Source: a virus. Taken from it: 64,000 nt of DNA. Under the pieces are notes generated by a model. It was given only the letters and a program-made list of their open reading frames with translations. It ran no database searches and had not been told where the DNA came from. Each line of letters opens with the position of its first letter. Within the stretch, counting starts at the first letter, position 1. This document shows, one piece after another, positions 5,457 through 61,738 of the stretch. Where the stretch lies: positions 1-64,000 of IMG/VR virus record IMGVR_UViG_3300010397_000043, one strand, 5' to 3'. The translations under genes were made by a program, and so were the position numbers.

Positions 5457-5897
5457 TCAGTTGTCGATCTGGATGGTCAGCGCGGCAGCCGCGAAGCTCG
5501 GGGCCGGGTCGCCGTTGTTGACCGTCTTGCTGGTGGTCAGCGGTGCCCAGAAGAGTTCGTTGCCGCTGGTGCTGGCGTCGTAGATCGCCATGCCAGTGAT
5601 CGAGCCCCAGTTGGCCGAGGGAGACGGGAAAGTGATCGCACCGTTGTTGGACGTGGTGCCGTTGTTGCCGCTGGAGGCGGACGTGCTGCCGGCGGATTGG
5701 GTGCCGGCCCAGTTGGACAGAGACGAGCTGACCGCGACCCGGGCGTAGGAACCGCCTGAGACTTCGGTGCCGCCACCAGTGTCACTCGGGTTCGCCGTGT
5801 AGAGGGCGATGTAGACGGTGGTGGGTGCGGTGAAGGTCTGGCCCCGCAGGAGCCAGTCAATCAGCTTGTTTTCGAGATAGTCGCTCATGTGCGCCAT
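5457..5897 (-). CDS. Small tail-fibre-associated structural protein, paralog 1 (MSDYLENKLIDWLLRGQ family)
   Basis: Strong similarity to 8219..8674; YIALYTANP, EVSGGSYARV and GNELFW motifs; AAGGTG RBS before the ATG at 5897. Confidence 0.7.
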   Translation of the reverse strand: MAHMSDYLENKLIDWLLRGQTFTAPTTVYIALYTANPSDTGGGTEVSGGSYARVAVSSSLSNWAGTQSAGSTSASSGNNGTTSNNGAITFPSPSANWGSITGMAIYDASTSGNELFWAPLTTSKTVNNGDPAPSFAAAALTIQIDN

Positions 5898-6020
5898 GGT
5901 GAACACCTTTCAAGGGAAATTGATGGGGTGATCGCTCTGGCGTAGAGAATCCAGAACGTGGCGCGAAATGTAGCGCAAGATGACGGTTCTGTACAGGCTA
6001 CAATGACCGGCCTTTGGCTA

Positions 6021-31763: not shown

Positions 31764-32396
31764 ACAGCGAATCGAGTGCGAGTGCATCGCGTGCGATAGG
31801 TCGGGTGCGTGCCCCTCGTGTGCGAGTGTGTCGTGTGCGATAGGTGCGGCACTGCACCACACACCAGGGCGGGGGCACCAGGGCGAAGGGCGGGCCCGAG
31901 TGCTCGGCTCGTAAGCACGAAACAGCGCAGCATTACAAGCCCTGTAACCTAGGGGTACAGTGTGGCACGGTATATGCAAAGGCAAGTACCGGTCCACGTT
32001 AGTACACACTTCGTAAACGGGGCAGTGCCGGCGGGCACCCTTGCGAAACGGGCGCAGGCAACGCGAACGGGCATGCGCCAAGGGTGTATGCACACATGCG
32101 CCGATGCGCGCCAGGGCGGGCCCGCTAGGGGCCTTTGCGGGCATGGCCGAAAATGGCTAATCGTTGTGCGGCACAGCATGTGTAACCGATCCCCCTTAAA
32201 TGCGGGGGGTGGTGCAACACAGGGTTTGTAATGCCCTGCCCTGTCGCCTAGGGTATGCGTGGGGGCGCCCATTGGGCCCCCTGGGCAGGGGCCCTAAGCC
32301 CCACCCCCTCGCAGCTTTAACAACCTAGTGCCACGCAACCATAGGGGGTTCGCATGGGCCCGCCATTCGCGCACCTAGCACGAAGGCAGGCACACC

Positions 32397-32849
32397 ATGG
32401 CAACCACCAAGCAAACCACGAAGCAAACGAACCAAGCGCGCGCCGCACTGGCGCAGCGCGCATCGAAGGCGAAGGCGAAGGCTGCGAAGCCTGCGCCCGT
32501 CGAAGTCGAGGCCGACGAAAGCGAAGTCGAGGCCGACGAAGGCAACGAAGGCGGGTCGCAATGGGCCCGCGAACGCGAGCGCATCGCCGATGGCAAGGGC
32601 AGTGGGCAGCGGTTTACCGCACTCGCCGCCGCGATGCTCGAAGCGCAGCAAGCCGGCAAGTCGCATGCGACCTTTGCCGACATTGCGCAACGCACGGCAG
32701 CGCACACGCGCAACGGCAAGGCCCTTACCCGCACCAGCGTTGCAAGCTGGCGCACATTGCTGCAGCGCGCGAAGCAAACGCCCCTTGGGCCCGACCTTGC
32801 GAATGTGCGTATCGACGAAACCGGCTTTTCGTTCGCGAAGGCCGAGTAA
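32397..32849 (+). CDS. Hypothetical early protein (basic N-terminus, acidic linker)
   Basis: 150 aa; AAGG..CACACCATG start context; duplicated EVEADE. Confidence 0.75.
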   Translation: MATTKQTTKQTNQARAALAQRASKAKAKAAKPAPVEVEADESEVEADEGNEGGSQWARERERIADGKGSGQRFTALAAAMLEAQQAGKSHATFADIAQRTAAHTRNGKALTRTSVASWRTLLQRAKQTPLGPDLANVRIDETGFSFAKAE

Positions 32850-33761: not shown

Positions 33762-33965
33762 AGAGTTTCGTGCAGAAATCGGTGCAGTAAAGAATTCTTT
33801 GCAGAAAATCTTGCAGAAATTGTAGATTTTGCAGAAAATCTTGCAGAAATTTTTTCTGCAAAGAATTCTTGAAAAAATCTCTGTAAAAATTTCTTGCATG
33901 AGTTCTGCTGGGTACCGGGAATTCTGCAATCCTCTTAAGAGATTTTCAGAAACTTTTCGTCAGAG
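33762..33965 (+). repeat. Right AT-rich short-repeat array (TGCAGAAA[A]T), A-tracts about one helical turn apart
   Basis: TTTGCAGAAAATCTTGCAGAAATT twice, plus further TGCAGAAA/TTCTGCA copies. Confidence 0.85.
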
Positions 33966-34266
33966 ATCCCGGCAGACCCTATAGGGCCGACTTTGCGAAA
34001 CTCTATTTCGCTAAAGGCCAAACCCTGCAGAAATGGCGCTCGCCCTGGGCGCTTCGCAGGGCCCGATTTGTAACAATCGACCGATTTAAACGCCCTAGGC
34101 GCGATTTAAACGGGGTGGGGTGCCACTACCCCCTTAGCCATGCCCGAAAAACGCCCATGGGGCCCGATTTAGGGCCTTGGCGCGGCATCGGCCTATGTGC
34201 CCGACCCCCTACCCCGCAAATAGGGCCCAAAACGGCCCTAGGCATGAGGGTTCGCCCGCAGGCATG

Positions 34267-34300
34267 AAAAAACCCCTGGTGGCCGAGGCCAGCCAGGGGC
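34267..34300 (-). terminator. Terminator of the leftward early operon
   Basis: CCCCTGG...CCAGGGG stem followed by TTTTTT on the minus strand. Confidence 0.75.
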
Positions 34301-34356
34301 AAACTCACACGAAAGGTGCCGACACTCCTGCAGCGGTCGGCGGGCTGCAAACTTCC

Positions 34357-34935
34357 CTATCGGCTGTGTAGAGCCCTATCGCCATTCTGGGGCCCTATCG
34401 GCTTCCCATTCTCTTTTCGAGGGCCCCATTCCTCGACAAGGTCCCCGCCAAGCACGTAGGGCTTGAGGCCAGACTGCCAAGGCCATGCGACGTAGCTGAA
34501 ACTGCGTTTGGTGTTGAGCACCCAACCATGCACCCGCCAGATGGGACAGGTGACGCAGCGCACGGCACCGCGTGCCACATGAAAGCCACCGAGTGTGAAG
34601 TAGCTGAAATTTCGCAGCACCTTAAACTCCGCCTCGCCGAACTTCAGCGGCTTGCGATTCACCCACAGCCACGCGACACCTTCGTACTCCCATTCGCGGT
34701 CGATGAGTATGCGGCCCTGTTCGCACAGAACGTTGAACTTGTCGAGCGCCTCGCCATGCTCTTGCTCAAGGCGGTGGTGGTACTCGACGTCCTTGTTCAG
34801 GCGGGCCACCACACGCTGCATCGCCCGCAACTCAGGCTTGGTGATGTAGACGAAGTAGTGGGCCGAGCCTTTGTCTGTATTCAAGCAGCGGTCGAACATT
34901 TCACGCAGCGGCTTCCCGATCTCGAGCTTGCTCAT
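34357..34935 (-). CDS. Hypothetical protein
   Basis: 192 aa, AAGGAG RBS. Confidence 0.7.
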   Translation of the reverse strand: MSKLEIGKPLREMFDRCLNTDKGSAHYFVYITKPELRAMQRVVARLNKDVEYHHRLEQEHGEALDKFNVLCEQGRILIDREWEYEGVAWLWVNRKPLKFGEAEFKVLRNFSYFTLGGFHVARGAVRCVTCPIWRVHGWVLNTKRSFSYVAWPWQSGLKPYVLGGDLVEEWGPRKENGKPIGPQNGDRALHSR

Positions 34936-37739: not shown

Positions 37740-37764
37740 GTTCTACCTTTCGTGTGGTTAAGGG

Positions 37765-40857: not shown

Positions 40858-41058
40858 TCAGGCTCCTTGCTCTTCGACGATGCGTGCGGCACCCGGGCCG
40901 TACACGTCTACGTTGCGGTCGTCCTCTGCCAGTCTGGCGTCGAGGTATGCCTGGGCTTGCGCACGGGTGTCGAAACGCCGAGCGCCGAAGCGGGGGGTCC
41001 GCCACACGCGCCGCGTGCCCGCAGCGTTGGCGTTGCGAAACTGAATTACGAACTTCAT
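40858..41058 (-). CDS. Hypothetical protein (66 aa)
   Basis: Tightly packed within the operon. Confidence 0.6.
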   Translation of the reverse strand: MKFVIQFRNANAAGTRRVWRTPRFGARRFDTRAQAQAYLDARLAEDDRNVDVYGPGAARIVEEQGA

Positions 41059-41060
41059 GG

Positions 41061-41450
41061 TCAGGCCCCTTCGCGCTTGGTGTAGGTGCCGACTGCACTC
41101 GTGGGTTCTTCGGCGGTGGCGGCAGCGGGTGCCTCAGCCGGCAAGTCGATACGCACGAACCCCGCGCGCAGCATGTCGTGCCACATGCGGCGCGCATCGG
41201 CGACAGCGAACACGCCGTTGGGTTCATCCTCACACCGCCAGTTGGTCGCGCGAATGCGCACCCATTCGGGGTGGCCCTTCACGTGCTCGAAGGTGGCCGA
41301 CACTGCCCACCACTCGCTCTGGTATTCGAGCCGCCAAGCGGGCCCGTCGTCGAGTTGCACTTCTGGCGAGTACAAGTTCACCGCCTCGCGCATCGTGTGC
41401 GCGTACTGCCGCACTAGCGCGCTGGCCTTTTGGTGGCCTTCTGTTCTCAT
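41061..41450 (-). CDS. Hypothetical protein, first gene of the leftward early operon
   Basis: CACACGAAAGGCAGG start context; MRTEGHQK... Confidence 0.65.
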   Translation of the reverse strand: MRTEGHQKASALVRQYAHTMREAVNLYSPEVQLDDGPAWRLEYQSEWWAVSATFEHVKGHPEWVRIRATNWRCEDEPNGVFAVADARRMWHDMLRAGFVRIDLPAEAPAAATAEEPTSAVGTYTKREGA

Positions 41451-41829
41451 GTTTGCCTGCCTTTCGTGTGTGCCGTGCGCACCGTGCGCGCGACACTCGA
41501 AGGGTACAACGGTTGTAATGTGACTAGCAACGCCCATGGGCGCGTGTCGATTACCAGTGGTAATTCCCGAACGCGGGTGGTAGCGTGGCCCGTGGCCCAG
41601 TGGGCTGTGCTCCGCCGTGGGCAAATTCAATTGCTCATGCGGCAGCAGCCCGGTGGGGCAGAGTAGGTGTAGGAAGTCAGGCTGCGAGAAGTCCGCCGGG
41701 AGGCTGGAGTTCTTGGCAGAGGGGCCGGCTCGCGCGTATGCGAGCGGGCAGGAGGATGCGTAAAATCCGGCCTCGGCGAAAAGCCTAGGAATGTCTTAAG
41801 AGATTTTCTGCGGCTTTGGGGCTTGGGAG

Positions 41830-42157
41830 CCACCGGCCTCAGTAGGCCTTTGGCGGGTTGGACGTAGAACGAGCACTCTCAACACACGTTCGACGCCAAC
41901 CCCGCTACTCAGCTCGTCAGGTACTGCGCTTCACAACGCAGGGTCCGCCAGTCGTTGCTTGGACGCTTCGTGGACCAACGACTCGGGACGAACCTTGTGG
42001 AGCTACCTATCACCGCTGCTGTGGACTGCCGGGGGCAACCACGCAAACCCCAAATCCACTTGCGGTGACCGGCATGCAGGCTCCACTTACCTGACGCACC
42101 CCGCCGTTGAACCCACCGGGGCTTGTCACCACAACGACCGGTCAGTCGATGCGATGG
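41830..42157 (-). ncRNA. Putative structured ncRNA / long leader RNA
   Basis: No convincing ORF; at least six nested helices; downstream of a sigma70-like promoter. Confidence 0.55.
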
Positions 42158-42162
42158 GCCGA

Positions 42163-42191
42163 ACTGTGCCACAACCCGCCGGGCTTTGCAA
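42163..42191 (-). promoter_or_regulatory. Sigma70-like promoter
   Basis: TTGCAA-17 bp-CACAGT with extended TG. Confidence 0.5.
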
Positions 42192-42334
42192 GACGTACCC
42201 GGCCCGCCCCGCAAACGGCCCGCCGGGGCCCTATCGCCATCCTATGCCCTATCGCCATCTTGAGAACCATTTCGATCCGCCCCGCCATTCCCCCGACCAG
42301 ATGTATTGAATTGGTTAGTGTGGGCAAAACCGGG

Positions 42335-42423
42335 GTGTTGAGTGGGTAGGGGTAGTGGGTATGGGGATGGGGGGCCCTTTAGGGGCCCTCCCATACCCAC
42401 ATACCCCTACCCACCTACAACAC
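42335..42423. other. Long imperfect inverted repeat, candidate replication origin
   Basis: GTGTTG..GTGGGTAGGGGTA.GTGGGTATGGG..GGGCCC arm pairs with the C-rich arm; 30 bp after the primase-helicase stop. Confidence 0.5.
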
Positions 42424-42451
42424 TACATCCCGGCGCGGAGAAATATGGAGC

Positions 42452-44554
42452 TTATGATTCGAGGGGTGGCGCATACCGGAACCGATTCGCCTTACCCCCT
42501 TCGTGCTTGAATCGTTCAATACGCAATTTGCCTTCGTCCACTGCCTGTTGCAAATGGACGCGCAAACCCATGGCGTTCGTGAGCCCAGCGTTCAAGATAT
42601 CGGGGTGGTTTTGGATCGAACCCAGCACTCCACTTGCACTCGCAATGGTCCAGTGCCCCTGTGCGTATTTTTCCAGCACCGTGCGGACCACCAGCGACTG
42701 CTGAAATTCCTGTTGCCCGGTGCCAGTCGGTGCCGCGCCGATCTCGTCACCCATCGCCAAAATGCCTGCATTAACATTCCACAACCAGCGCCCGCCATGC
42801 GACGTTGCACCGTAGTTATTCTTCTCCACAATAAGTTCCGTATTGCCGCGTTCGTCGCGCTTTAGACTCCATCGAGCCCGAGCCGAATTGTGCCATTGAG
42901 TAGAACCGCTATACCCATCCCCCGCCTTGCTATCGTGACCCAGCAAAAGCACGGCAAGGTCGTGCTCAATCGCAAGTGCCGCCAGTCCCGAAACGAACTC
43001 GTCCACCATCGCCCGGGCGTTCTCGTTCGCCATGTAAAACTTGGACAGGTTGTCGAGGCATACGTAGGAGTAATTGCCCTCCTCGATGATCTCCTTCAAG
43101 CGGTCGAACTGCACGGTAAATTCGCCGTCTCGAAAGTCCTCGCCGATGTAGAGCGCCTTTCTCGTAATGTGGGCCAGTCCCTTCACGTCGAGCCACTTGC
43201 GCAGCCGCTTGATCGAGATTCCATAGTGCTGGCATATTCCCCAAAGTCGATGCGAAACTTCGTTCAGCTCGTCTTCGGCACCGATGTAGAGCACACGCCC
43301 CCTAGTAACCGGCGCTCCAAACCAGTCGAGCCCCATCGCCACCCGGGCGCAAAACGTCAGCGTGGAGTACGTTTTACCCGCACCGCCATTGGACGAAAAC
43401 AGCACCACGGTCTTGCGGTACATCCAGTTCTTGACCAACGGTTCGGCCCCGGGCGGGCGCTCGGTCGCCTGCTCCATCATGTTCCAGTCAATGTCCTGCC
43501 ACGGCAACGCTTCAACTTCGGCGTCCTCGTCGTCAACACCCGTCGAGCGCACTTTCGACCGCTTCAAGCCCCAAGCCTTCATGGTCTTGTCGGACACCTT
43601 GCAACCGTTGTCAAGGGCCTTGTAGACCAGCGACTTCATGGTTGTCAGGTCGTCCCGGCCATGATCGTGCGAAAAGCCGGCCTCCCAACGCTTCCGGTTA
43701 TTCTCGTAGTCATACCCTTCCCGGGTCGCTGACCACTCATCGAGCACCTCCCACGCAGCCTCCGCCCCATCGAACTGCATGTGCAGCGCAGCCGCCGCGC
43801 GATACCATGTGCCCTCCCCCGGTGCGCCCCACTCGGCGGGCAGTCGCTTCAACACCGCACGGGCCTGTGCGAGCGTAAAGTTGGGCAGTCCCACCGCGTT
43901 CAACGACACGAGCCCTTCCACGGGCTTGCCCCCTGCCGTCGATGCCTTTCCACTACCGACCGAGCCCATGGCCTCGGTCAACTCGCGCTTGATGCCAAAC
44001 GGCATGCGGCGCACCTTGCCCACGTTGTCGAGCAGGTCCTTGATCGCGTTGCCCGTGAACGTGGTGTACGCCGCGCCGCAGTACACCTCTACCCGCTCGC
44101 CATTCGAGATATGGAAGTTGCGCTTTTGTCCCGGGATCAGCGCCTCGCGGTACACCGCGCGCAGGCCACGCCCCGACGGTGACCGCTCGGCGTACACGCC
44201 CGAGTCCACAATGTCGTTGGCGAATTCGCTCAGCTCGCCGTTCTCGTCGATGCAGTTGTCCAGGTCGATGATTGTAAGGTTTTGCTCGGGCAGCACGGCC
44301 AGCCCGACGCCATCAAACTTGCGCTTGCGGGCGTAGGCCAGCGCGGCGTCAAAGGGGGCAAGCTGTTCAACATCCTTTTCCGACCCCAGCACGCCGTACC
44401 GCTTTCGCCCGTTGACGTAGTACGGCACCTTGAGTTGCTTTTTGGCGGGGTCGGGATTGTCCTCGTAGCGCCACACGACCCAGTGATCGAGTTCGCGCAG
44501 CAGTGCAGGGATGTTCTCTTCGTTAACCTGGGTAGTGGCGGTTTGCTTCGACAT
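42452..44554 (-). CDS. Primase-helicase fusion (AEP primase, PriCT-like domain, AAA_25/RepA-type helicase)
   Basis: WVVWR..KVPY, IDLDNC, AERSPSGRGL, EVY; Walker A SNGGAGKT, LLLGHDSK, YSGSTQW...AR, VEKNNYG. Confidence 0.88.
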   Translation of the reverse strand: MSKQTATTQVNEENIPALLRELDHWVVWRYEDNPDPAKKQLKVPYYVNGRKRYGVLGSEKDVEQLAPFDAALAYARKRKFDGVGLAVLPEQNLTIIDLDNCIDENGELSEFANDIVDSGVYAERSPSGRGLRAVYREALIPGQKRNFHISNGERVEVYCGAAYTTFTGNAIKDLLDNVGKVRRMPFGIKRELTEAMGSVGSGKASTAGGKPVEGLVSLNAVGLPNFTLAQARAVLKRLPAEWGAPGEGTWYRAAAALHMQFDGAEAAWEVLDEWSATREGYDYENNRKRWEAGFSHDHGRDDLTTMKSLVYKALDNGCKVSDKTMKAWGLKRSKVRSTGVDDEDAEVEALPWQDIDWNMMEQATERPPGAEPLVKNWMYRKTVVLFSSNGGAGKTYSTLTFCARVAMGLDWFGAPVTRGRVLYIGAEDELNEVSHRLWGICQHYGISIKRLRKWLDVKGLAHITRKALYIGEDFRDGEFTVQFDRLKEIIEEGNYSYVCLDNLSKFYMANENARAMVDEFVSGLAALAIEHDLAVLLLGHDSKAGDGYSGSTQWHNSARARWSLKRDERGNTELIVEKNNYGATSHGGRWLWNVNAGILAMGDEIGAAPTGTGQQEFQQSLVVRTVLEKYAQGHWTIASASGVLGSIQNHPDILNAGLTNAMGLRVHLQQAVDEGKLRIERFKHEGGKANRFRYAPPLES

Positions 44555-44664
44555 AGTAGAACCTGATGAATTACCGGTGGTAATGGGGGCGGGTTTGTTA
44601 CTTGCTAGTCCGGGCCCGGCGGCGTACCATGGGCGCATCGCTTCGTTGCCTGCCTAGCGACTTC

Positions 44665-44735: not shown

Positions 44736-44890
44736 ATGCTAAGGGCGTGCAAGCCCTGGGCGCAAGTCGTTTCCGCGGGCCCCCGTAGGGGGCCCGAAAT
44801 CCCCCCGCACGCACCCATGCGTACACGCGCGCCTGCCTGGATTAGCAGGGTCGGCTCGACTTGCAGTCCGGTTACAGCCTTTGTTAAAGT
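44736..44890. promoter_or_regulatory. Divergent sigma70-like promoters (primase leftward, paralog array rightward)
   Basis: Minus: TTGCGC-18-TAGCAT (44765-44736). Plus: TTGCAG-18-TAAAGT with extended TG (44861-44890). Confidence 0.45.
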
Positions 44891-44931: not shown

Positions 44932-45327
44932 ATGGATATCGAGCGGCTTCAAGAACTGCGGCGCGTCATCGTCGAAACGCCCGACGAGCGTGTTGACCTC
45001 AATGGCTGGGCGCGGTCGTGCGGCACCATCGCCTGCGTGCTCGGCTGGGCCTGCAAACACCCGCCGTTCGTGGCCGAGGGACTGCACCTGTTCGAGGACG
45101 AGGGCGCGTACACGCCTTGCTTCGGCAATTTCATCAACTACGAAGCGGGCGGGGAGTTCTTCCGCCTGTCGTACCCCGACGCCGAATTCCTGTTTGGGCC
45201 GCGTTCGTGGGGCGACGCCACGGGCCGCGCCGACATCACCGACAAGCAATTGGCCCTGCAGCGCATCGATGAACTGCTGGGCACGCGCCGCAGCCCGTAC
45301 ACCGATTGCTTTCCCTGCGACGACTGA
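44932..45327 (+). CDS. CGTIAC-motif paralog 1
   Basis: MDIERL..., CGTIACVLGWAC, AGGEFF, KQLALQRIDELL; most divergent copy. Confidence 0.85.
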   Translation: MDIERLQELRRVIVETPDERVDLNGWARSCGTIACVLGWACKHPPFVAEGLHLFEDEGAYTPCFGNFINYEAGGEFFRLSYPDAEFLFGPRSWGDATGRADITDKQLALQRIDELLGTRRSPYTDCFPCDD

Positions 45328-61661: not shown

Positions 61662-61738
61662 GGCCACATAGCTCAATCTGGTAGAGCGTCGGTCTCCAAA
61701 ACCGAAGGTTGGGGGTTCAAGTCCCTCTGTGGTCGCCA
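61662..61738 (+). tRNA. tRNA-Trp(CCA)
   Basis: Canonical cloverleaf; TCGGT-CTCCAAA-ACCGA anticodon arm, GGTTCAAGTCC T arm, encoded CCA. Confidence 0.95.

What the first reader, a model, noticed from the sequence alone, without database searches (positions are those of the whole stretch)
41830..42157. ~330-nt highly structured RNA at the head of the leftward early operon
Seen: about 1 kb without a convincing ORF; a promoter at 42163-42191 points into nested helices: 41915-41923/42088-42096 (9 bp), 41997-42003/42080-42086, 42010-42016/42062-42068, 42021-42025/42055-42059, 41950-41957/41976-41983, 41924-41928/41937-41941, plus a long hairpin at ~41853-41905. Inference: a multi-junction ncRNA or cis-acting leader (antiterminator like HK022 put, protein sponge, or ribozyme). 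I do not recognise the family.
Basis: partly seen in the sequence, partly recalled or inferred. Interest (0 to 1): 0.7.

Follow-up and report, generated by a model that had tools for sequence, protein, structure and literature searches.

The report
Orphan structured RNA candidate in phage
An uncultured soil phage has, just after its primase gene, a gene-free stretch whose leftward strand would fold into an unusually stable 330-base RNA with a four-armed core, but no relative carrying it could be found, so its reality as a working RNA and its job remain unproven.

Summary
All six nested helices and the long hairpin appear in the minimum-energy fold of the minus strand. That fold beats every shuffle: 328 nt, z -5.2; 182-nt four-way-junction core (42096-41915), z -6.7. 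The plus strand scores z -3.3 and -4.8. The stretch shows no coding signature and matches no Rfam 15 family.

The promoter is weak by consensus, but it is conserved, together with two upstream CGATAGGG repeats, in one relative (L014).

Comparative support is missing. The only two syntenic relatives reachable (primase about 50% identical) keep the gene-free unit and its flanking motifs. They do not keep this sequence or fold. No second copy exists in the phage. No RNA run holds the stretch.

A C-rich, G-poor tract follows the fold and precedes the next gene.

My best reading (0.35) is a cis-acting structured leader that controls transcription into the small early genes. It resembles HK022 put in logic but is not a put member. 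Rivals are a free-standing ncRNA, an origin-linked DNA or transcript feature, or no function.

This scan has reported structured leader RNAs in other phages before. None looks like this one. Interest is moderate.

The parts
42452..44638 (-). Primase-helicase gene. It is the first leftward gene, directly upstream of the gap.
   Evidence: 728-aa ORF. Pfam PriCT_2 and AAA_25. Coding GC pattern 0.61/0.44/0.74.
42340..42416 (.). Near-perfect G-rich/C-rich palindrome after the primase stop. It could be a terminator or an origin element; it is not part of the RNA fold.
   Evidence: Inverted repeats I1/I4/I8. All 34 weak Rfam matches of the gap fall within 42260-42433, on and around the palindrome. 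A similar palindrome sits after the primase gene in L014 and L015.
42228..42259 (-). Two direct repeats, GATGGCGATAGGGC on the minus strand, 18 nt apart. This is a putative regulator-binding site upstream of the promoter.
   Evidence: D2. Conserved in L014 and L015. A second cluster of three copies lies at 34355-34400.
42163..42191 (-). Putative sigma-70-type promoter TTGCAA-N17-CACAGT, with TG upstream of the second hexamer.
   Evidence: One search finds one match, but the pattern was derived from this site and L014. Conserved in L014. Not found by the generic scan.
42127..42156 (-). 5' hairpin H1, starting at the inferred transcription start.
   Evidence: -15.5 kcal/mol, z -3.1.
42098..42122 (-). 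Hairpin H2.
   Evidence: -14.1 kcal/mol, z -2.1.
41915..42096 (-). Four-way-junction core. P1 is a 9-bp closing stem. P2 and P3 are two long arms. P4 is a 7-bp hairpin with a GUGA loop.
   Evidence: -94.1 kcal/mol, z -6.69, 0 of 200 shuffles as good; 70 pairs, 8 of them G-U, mean pair probability 0.94. The core is kept when the whole 1021-nt gap is folded.
41855..41902 (-). Long 3' hairpin H5, preceded by a small hairpin at 41904-41913.
   Evidence: z -3.5.
41830..41853 (-). Terminal hairpin GGCCU-ACUG-AGGCC.
   Evidence: z -2.1.
41600..41860 (-). C-rich, G-poor untranslated tract, with C/G of 1.3-2.5 per 78 nt. It is rut-like in composition.
   Evidence: The median for the minus strand over 34-45 kb is 0.89, the 95th percentile 1.56 and the 99th 2.2.
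41794..41808 (-). 15-mer GAAAATCTCTTAAGA, part of a near-palindrome. It is repeated exactly at 33933-33947.
   Evidence: 5 matches at up to 3 mismatches against 0.36 expected; the two exact copies are these. I10.
41061..41450 (-). First small early gene downstream (129 aa), preceded by CACACGAAAGG at 41460-41470.
   Evidence: (identical protein on record).

Best explanation
The minus strand of about 42157-41830 is the first part of an untranslated early transcript.

It starts at a weak sigma-70-type promoter (42191-42163). That promoter lies downstream of two CGATAGGG repeats, which probably bind a regulator.

As the RNA is made, the G-rich sequence folds into six back-to-back helical modules. 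The largest is a 182-nt four-way junction.

A roughly 250-nt C-rich, G-poor tract follows, and then the cluster of small early genes (ATG at 41450).

I read this as a cis-acting structured leader that sets how much transcription passes the untranslated tract into those genes. Without help, RNA polymerase would be open to Rho-type termination on the C-rich tract. The folded domain would modulate this, either by acting on the polymerase that made it (put-like logic) or by controlling access to the tract.

What is shown: the fold's exceptional stability, its strand bias, the lack of coding signal, the composition switch, and conservation of the flanking motifs in relatives.

What is inferred: the promoter, the existence of the transcript, its 3' end, any termination, and any effect of the fold.
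For: Fold stability:
- z -5.22 for 328 nt and -6.69 for the core, with 0 shuffles as good.
- The pairs are well defined, with mean pair probability 0.94.

Strand bias:
- 14 G-U pairs on the minus strand against 5 on the plus strand over 328 nt; 8 against 2 in the core.
- The RNA z-scores favour the minus strand.

Non-coding:
- No coding GC pattern.
- No family hits.

Transcription unit:
- The first hairpin begins about 7 nt after the CACAGT hexamer.
- The promoter and the CGATAGGG repeats are conserved in L014. The repeats are also conserved in L015.
- L014 and L015 keep a 300-450-nt gene-poor unit at the same place. L014's unit ends in a terminator-like hairpin followed by a T-run.

Composition:
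- A G-rich segment is followed by a C-rich one in the window. The same holds in L014 and, more weakly, in L015.

Context:
- Downstream genes run in the same direction for 7 kb.
Against: - No homologue of the fold was found anywhere. Searches: phage records, the whole own record, 31 held sources, L014/L015 with filters off, two further virus records, and pattern scans.
- There is therefore no covariation evidence.
- The positional counterparts in L014 and L015 fold only marginally better than shuffles: z -1.67 with 7 of 100 shuffles as good, and z -1.97 with 4 of 100.
- The generic promoter scan finds nothing.
- No intrinsic terminator follows the fold. The terminator-like hairpin that I read at about 41818-41770 is not better than shuffles (z -0.45).
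- The downstream gene has its own palindromic operator-like site at 41550-41564. It may therefore have its own promoter.
- With DNA energy parameters the two strands fold almost equally well, z -5.1 and -4.6.
- The host is unknown, so any reliance on Rho is an assumption.
Confidence: 0.35

Rival explanations
1. It is a free-standing, stable, trans-acting non-coding RNA gene of about 330-400 nt. It has its own promoter. Its 3' end is made in the C-rich tract or at the weak hairpin near 41775. It would act as a protein-binding decoy or scaffold, for example against a host defence or RNA-binding protein.
For: - In L014 the unit in the same position is bounded by a promoter-like site and a terminator-like hairpin with a T-run. 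A separate conserved promoter-like box (GGATCTTGGGTATATCA, shared with L015) follows it. That looks like an independent non-coding transcription unit.
- The window's downstream gene has its own operator-like palindrome at 41550-41564.
- The fold is compact, with 118 pairs in 328 nt, and well defined. This is as expected for a stable RNA.
Against: - The window has no clear terminator.
- No homologues and no second copy were found.
- There is no transcript evidence.
- No partner protein can be named.
- A trans-acting RNA under selection would be expected to survive in relatives that keep the locus. L014 and L015 do not keep the fold.
Confidence: 0.25
2. The structure belongs to the replication origin next to the primase-helicase gene. 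It would act either as DNA secondary structure on an unwound strand or as an origin-activating or priming transcript.
For: - The gap lies directly after the primase-helicase gene.
- L014 and L015 carry obvious iteron arrays and an AT-rich patch right after the primase stop.
- The conserved palindrome and direct repeats lie within 250 nt of the fold.
- With DNA parameters both strands of the core fold far better than shuffles, z -5.1 and -4.6.
Against: - The iterons and palindrome lie upstream of the promoter, and transcription would run away from them.
- Nested four-way junctions closed by a 9-bp stem are not a usual origin feature (my knowledge, not a test).
- There are 8 G-U pairs on one strand against 2 on the other. 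This argues for one-strand (RNA) use rather than a cruciform.
- Relatives keep the iterons and palindrome but not this fold.
Confidence: 0.12
3. It has no function of its own. It could be a fortuitously self-complementary GC-rich spacer, or the decaying remnant of an inserted element whose inverted repeats still pair.
For: - It is an orphan: no homologue was found in any collection reachable.
- Relatives have unrelated sequence at the same place, with near-background folding.
- Other gene-free stretches of this phage also fold well. Site B, 33950-34330, has z -4.1, and the rest of this gap has z -3.3.
- The 9-bp closing stem could be read as terminal inverted repeats. A 7-mer, GCGGGGU, flanks the core on both sides (read).
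Against: - z -6.7 with 0 of 200 shuffles as good.
- It is the top non-palindrome 182-nt window of the 64 kb.
- The strand-biased G-U pairs are not expected from decay of a DNA repeat.
- The fold starts exactly at the inferred transcription start.
- There is a single copy only, so nothing suggests a mobile repeat.
Confidence: 0.23

Closest known systems
HK022 putL/putR antiterminator RNAs
   Same: - A promoter-proximal, protein-independent folded RNA at the start of phage early transcription, upstream of termination signals.
- Two hairpins lie directly after the start.
- put features are taken from passages of PMC9378689: about 70 nt, two stem-loops, downstream of PL and PR, acting on the polymerase through the beta' zinc-binding domain.
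   Different: - This element is 328 nt, with a 182-nt four-way junction and three further hairpins.
- No second copy was found behind another promoter.
- No sequence relation was shown.
- No activity data exist.
Leaders that control Rho-dependent termination (Salmonella mgtA/corA type)
   Same: A structured 5' domain is followed by a C-rich, G-poor untranslated tract before the first gene. For this class I saw only the listing and the start of the abstract of PMC5314796. The named examples are recalled.
   Different: - No ligand, leader peptide or alternative pairing has been identified.
- The host is unknown, so its use of Rho is unknown.
- The rut assignment rests on composition only.
Lambda PR'-tR' unit (the short '6S' leader transcript), recalled and not checked in a paper here
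   Same: A promoter, then a few hundred non-coding nucleotides, then a terminator, then genes. This matches L014. Read-through would need a modified polymerase.
   Different: - The window has no clear intrinsic terminator.
- No Q-like gene was looked for.
- The lambda leader is not noted for a large stable fold.
Large orphan structured RNAs carried by phages or prophages (GOLLD, ROOL)
   Same: A large, ornate, non-coding RNA of unknown role in a phage. For these I saw only the listing and the start of the abstract of PMC12286853.
   Different: - No Rfam 15 family, these included if present there, matches at E<=10.
- This RNA is smaller.
- There is no covariation support.
Structured leader RNAs reported earlier by this scan in other phages (e1-3274438, e1-5774174, e1-227468, e1-247536, e1-192865)
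   Same: The same kind of place: a gene-free gap beside replication or early genes, with its own promoter and absent from Rfam.
   Different: - Those are said to be conserved, with compensatory changes, across many phages.
- This one has no look-alike in the scan's index and no relatives.
- I did not test those notes.

Membership tests
HK022 put RNA | About 70 nt, made of two stem-loops (PMC9378689 passages). | tested here: not met
   The fold is 328 nt with a four-way junction plus five hairpins. Only its first 60 nt are two hairpins.
HK022 put RNA | Paralogous copies downstream of both early promoters (putL, putR). | tested here: not met
   The covariance model of the core finds only itself in the 87.5-kb record and in the window. 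Caveat: it is a single-sequence model and covers the core only.
HK022 put RNA | Lies downstream of an early promoter and upstream of terminators. | tested here: inconclusive
   The promoter is inferred from conservation with L014 but is not found by the generic scan. Downstream there is only a C-rich tract.
HK022 put RNA | Suppresses pausing and termination through the RNA polymerase beta' zinc-binding domain. | not testable with these tools
   This needs in vitro transcription or genetics.
Any Rfam 15 family (riboswitches, ribozymes, GOLLD/ROOL/OLE/HEARO-type large RNAs, tRNA-like, c4/CI-type antisense RNAs) | A match to the family's covariance model. | tested here: not met
   - At gathering thresholds, the window's only match is a tRNA at 61662-61735.
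- At E<=10 over 41400-42500, all 34 matches lie within 42260-42433, on and around the palindrome. None lies in 41830-42157.
- ARAGORN finds only the tRNA-Trp.
Intrinsic-terminator attenuator or riboswitch expression platform | A terminator hairpin with a U-tract after the sensing domain, with a competing antiterminator. | tested here: not met
   - No terminator-like site in 41000-42800.
- The hairpin near 41775 has z -0.45.
- The P2-apex/downstream complementarity (I5) is not used in the 1021-nt fold.
Rho-dependent attenuator leader | An untranslated C-rich, G-poor tract (rut-like) downstream of the structure. | tested here: met
   C/G is 1.3-2.5 over about 41860-41600, at or above the 95th to 99th percentile of the early region. 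This is composition only; Rho binding is not testable here.
Origin-priming RNA (ColE1 RNA II type; recalled) | The transcript runs into the origin and forms a hybrid there. | tested here: not met
   The inferred promoter points away from the palindrome and repeats, which lie upstream. The position of the origin itself is inferred.
Miniature inverted-repeat element | Multiple copies, with terminal inverted repeats and target duplications. | tested here: not met
   There is a single copy in the record. The pattern scans found no true copy in viral contigs or genome contigs. There are no adjacent target duplications (read).

The most novel reading that the evidence does not exclude
The 330-nt fold is a lineage-specific, self-sufficient regulatory RNA. 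It would be one arm of an RNA-based early-gene circuit run by one CGATAGGG-binding regulator.

- Site A (this finding) would make a large four-way-junction RNA. It would ride on or shield the polymerase, or soak up a host or phage RNA-binding factor.
- Site B (34400-33933) has the same repeats upstream and the same 15-mer downstream. It would make a short terminated RNA whose 11-nt CCUUUCGUGUG is the exact antisense of the start-associated CACACGAAAGG. That motif sits in front of at least three early genes, including the gene right after site A.
Probability: 0.12. Interest if true: 0.75.

Novelty: new variant of a known kind. Interest (0 to 1): 0.42.

Why it matters
If the RNA is real, it would add a large four-way-junction RNA with no catalogued family to the small set of phage leader RNAs that act on transcription themselves. 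HK022 put is the only well-understood case.

It would also show that such leaders can be replaced wholesale between phages that keep the same promoter, repeats and gene order.

Together with the antisense element at site B, it would suggest that this soil phage times its orphan early genes largely through RNA.

If it is not real, it is a useful warning. Folding z-scores near -6 can occur in GC-rich phage spacers without any conserved structure.

Tried and rejected
Homologue searches that found nothing useful:
- blastn of the gap against 50,697 phage records gave no match.
- The window's primase against viral contigs gave 6 loci at 26-38% identity. The primase alignment A1 gave 5 loci at 28-34%.
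- A1 against genome contigs gave 0 relatives among 23 pattern matches.
- A1 against metagenome contigs gave 4 loci. Only L014 and L015 (50-51%) are syntenic.
- blastn and nhmmer of the gap against 15 loci matched only the palindrome and the repeat motif in L014.
- The covariance model R1 was built from the core alone. I entered the same window sequence twice to obtain an alignment. It found only itself among 31 sources and in the own record. It found nothing in G001 or G002; L014 and L015 were not held for that call. With filters off on L014 and L015, the best hits were on the palindrome.
- Pattern scans: the junction pattern gave 0 hits in viral contigs. The P3/P4/P1 pattern gave 0 hits in viral contigs and 5 in genome contigs. 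Of those 5, the 2 I read (L047, L048) lie in a small membrane-protein ORF; none reached E below 0.4 with R1.
- GGATCTTGGGTATATCA gave 7 stretches. None has a primase or the repeats nearby.
- The downstream 129-aa protein has only 3 homologues. Of its 2 viral loci, one is cut at the contig end and the other has a gene directly upstream.

Runs and reads:
- No RNA holder is listed. The only holder is the probable source sample.
- Its contig shows no variants.

Ideas rejected:
- Sigma-54 promoter. TGGCAC-N5-WTGCW gave 6 matches against 5.2 expected, and the site here does not fit the spacing.
- TGTGGCAC is not enriched: 6 matches against 3.3 expected.
- 'All three CGATAGG-flanked leaders are highly structured' fails. 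Module I (31975-32400, plus strand) has z -0.8.
- The L014/L015 consensus fold rests on two sequences only, so it is not evidence.
- The CGATAGGG double repeat upstream of TTGAC boxes in unrelated contigs was not pursued. In L020 it follows a T7-type terminase gene.
- PHROGs and Pfam gave no family for the neighbouring small genes: 0 of 8, 0 of 8, and 0 of 5 small proteins.
- TerL is 48% identical to HK97-like coliphage terminases. This does not name a host.

Supplements of papers were not opened.

Full report
Setting. The window is the first 64 kb of an 87.5-kb IMG/VR virus record. Its only sequencing-run holder is a soil metagenome. GC content is about 62%. A map of ORFs with a coding-like GC pattern shows leftward genes: the primase-helicase gene (44638-42452) and then genes from 41450 down to 34357. 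Rightward genes start at 44932. The primase-helicase carries PriCT_2 and AAA_25. Its best named relatives are Caulobacter phages, at 30% identity over 60% of its length. Between its stop (42452) and the next leftward start (ATG 41450; the 129-aa protein is on record unchanged) lies 1 kb without a coding signature. The seven ORFs of 67-116 aa in the gap have GC2 of 0.53-0.76 and GC3 of 0.48-0.69. Six real genes have GC2 of 0.36-0.52 and GC3 of 0.73-0.81. None of the five gap ORFs tested hits a PHROG family.

The observation. On the minus strand, 42157-41830 folds at -162.8 kcal/mol, against a shuffle mean of -131.9 (z -5.22, 0 of 100 shuffles as good). The plus strand gives z -3.26. The fold is a chain of modules with 1-4-nt linkers:
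- H1 (42156-42127)
- H2 (42122-42098)
- a four-way junction (42096-41915)
- a small hairpin
- H5 (41902-41855)
- a terminal hairpin (41853-41830).
The core alone gives z -6.69 (0 of 200 shuffles as good), and the MFE structure is 2.6% of the ensemble. The plus strand of the core gives z -4.84. The core survives unchanged when the whole 1021-nt gap is folded. The minus-strand fold uses 14 G-U pairs over 328 nt and 8 in the core. The plus-strand fold uses 5 and 2. Mean pair probability is 0.94 against 0.87.

Background and caveats. The 328-nt window ranks 8th of 778 in the phage's own background. The exact core ranks 5th of 2096, and the four windows above the core all contain the 42340-42416 palindrome. 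The core's exact boundaries were added to the grid by hand. The nearest ordinary grid window scores only -2.4 sd. With DNA energy parameters the two strands are nearly equal, z -5.1 and -4.6. The strand call therefore rests on the G-U pairs.

Known families. At gathering thresholds, Rfam 15 finds only a tRNA at 61662-61735 in the window. At E<=10 over 41400-42500, all 34 weak matches lie within 42260-42433, on and around the palindrome, and none touches 41830-42157. ARAGORN finds only the tRNA-Trp.

Transcription signals. The generic scan finds no sigma-70 promoter and no intrinsic terminator in 41000-42800. It gains support from relative L014, which has TTGCCA-N17-CACATT with the same TGTGGCAC, also downstream of the same repeat motif. 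Upstream lie two copies of GATGGCGATAGGGC, 18 nt apart.

Downstream of the fold the composition flips. The fold is G-rich, with C/G of 0.5-1.0 per 78 nt. The next roughly 250 nt (41860-41600) are C-rich and G-poor, with C/G of 1.3-2.5. That is at or above the 95th to 99th percentile of the early region. This is the composition expected of a Rho-loading tract (my knowledge), and the tract is untranslated. Further down lie a near-palindromic 15-mer (41794-41808) and ATTACCAGTGGTAAT (41550-41564). Then comes CACACGAAAGG, in front of the ATG.

Relatives. The protein database holds 27 primase relatives at 38-59% identity. Scans with the primase alignment reached only two syntenic contigs, L014 and L015, at 50-51% identity. 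IMG/VR and the genome collection gave nothing close. Both relatives keep the same layout:
- the primase stop
- iteron-like repeats (in these two)
- a G/C palindrome with a GGGGCCCC core
- a GGCGATAGGGCGATAGGGC repeat
- a gene-poor unit of 300-450 nt
- a shared promoter-like box, GGATCTTGGGTATATCA.
L014's unit ends in a terminator-like hairpin with a T-run. L014 also shows the G-rich-then-C-rich layout, and L015 shows it weakly.

The sequence and the fold are not kept:
- MAFFT aligns only the motifs.
- The two units fold at z -1.67 and -1.97.
- The single-sequence covariance model of the core finds nothing in them, even with filters off.
- There is no second copy in the whole record.
- There is no look-alike in this scan's index.
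- Three pattern scans yielded nothing real.
No covariation test is therefore possible with what I could reach. No RNA run holds the stretch, and the source run's contig shows no variants.

A second module in the same phage. At 34400-34355 (minus strand) there are three CGATAGGG repeats. The identical 15-mer GAAAATCTCTTAAGA lies at 33947-33933, about 450 nt downstream, as at the finding. The stretch between them shares no other sequence with the finding but also folds well (z -4.1). It opens with CCUUUCGUGUG (34316-34306) followed by a hairpin and a T-run (34299-34267; one search lists part of it). That 11-mer is the exact antisense of CACACGAAAGG, which precedes the minus-strand gene starts at 37746, 38049 and 41460. 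A third repeat pair (GCGATAGGT, plus strand, 31793 and 31838) precedes the leader of the rightward island. That leader does not fold beyond chance (z -0.8).

Reading. The fold is real as a property of the sequence, and it is strand-biased. It sits exactly where a transcript from a conserved promoter would begin, in a conserved non-coding unit, and is followed by an untranslated C-rich tract. This fits a cis-acting leader that governs passage of RNA polymerase into the small early genes. It is put-like in logic: put is about 70 nt, has two stem-loops and lies downstream of the early promoters (PMC9378689 passages). It is not a put member. I give this reading 0.35.

A free-standing ncRNA gets 0.25. 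It is favoured by L014's terminator and by the separate promoter-like elements downstream. An origin-linked role gets 0.12. It is favoured by the neighbourhood and the symmetric DNA folding, but disfavoured by the direction of transcription and by the G-U bias. No function gets 0.23. It is favoured by the orphan status and by the loss of the fold in relatives that keep the locus.

Novelty. The kind of element is known: a structured RNA at the head of a phage early unit, reported repeatedly by this scan in other phages. This sequence and architecture match nothing. I rate it a new variant of a known kind, with moderate interest (0.42). The rating is held down by the lack of any comparative or expression support.

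Noticed in passing
window 34262-34320 (minus strand): CCUUUCGUGUG (34316-34306) is the exact antisense of the start-associated CACACGAAAGG found before the minus-strand gene starts at 37746, 38049 and 41460. A hairpin and a T-run (34299-34267) follow it. It looks like a short antisense RNA or a 3'UTR element aimed at early-gene ribosome sites.
   Followed up: partly
window 42228-42259, 34355-34400 (minus strand); 31793-31847 (plus strand); L014 6283-6302; L015 6441-6460: CGATAGGG(C) direct repeats stand upstream of three gene-free leaders in this phage and at the same place in both relatives. The double repeat also sits 3 nt upstream of TTGAC boxes in unrelated IMG/VR contigs (L019-L021, L024, L029 and L030), and L023/L032 and L025 carry it too. 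It is probably a binding site for a regulator.
   Followed up: partly
window 42340-42416 and 44777-44795; L014 about 5870-5950; L015 about 5800-5850: The primase gene is bracketed by G/C palindromes with a GGGGCCC...GGGGCCC centre. The downstream one is 77 nt long, built of GGGTAGGGG-like units, and conserved in position in both relatives. It could be a terminator or an origin element.
   Followed up: partly
window 41794-41808 and 33933-33947: An identical 15-mer, GAAAATCTCTTAAGA (part of a near-palindrome around CTTAAG), lies about 360-400 nt downstream of both CGATAGGG-flanked sites on the minus strand.
   Followed up: partly
window 33950-34330 (minus strand): A second gene-free stretch folds far better than shuffles (z -4.1) but shares no sequence with the finding.
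   Followed up: partly
L014 5670-5850; L015 5615-5770: Iteron-like arrays (CCACAGTAAC/GTTACTGTGG in L014, CTATCCATAAAC/GTTTATGGATAG in L015) with an AT-rich patch lie directly after the primase stop. These are likely replication origins. The window has no such array.
   Followed up: no
window 31961-31978 (plus strand): TGTGGCACGGTATATGCA lies 115-170 nt downstream of the GCGATAGGT repeats. It fits the sigma-54 -24/-12 spacing with one mismatch. Such matches are not enriched in the window (6 against 5.2 expected).
   Followed up: partly
L015 5942-6394: A 150-aa ORF with CxxC...HxxxC-like motifs is inserted between the palindrome and the repeats. It is absent from the window and from L014.
   Followed up: no
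window 42130-42136 and 42170-42176 (minus strand): The 7-mer GTTGTGG, part of the promoter's TGTGGCAC region, recurs 40 nt downstream inside hairpin H1. This may be chance or a pause-type element.
   Followed up: no
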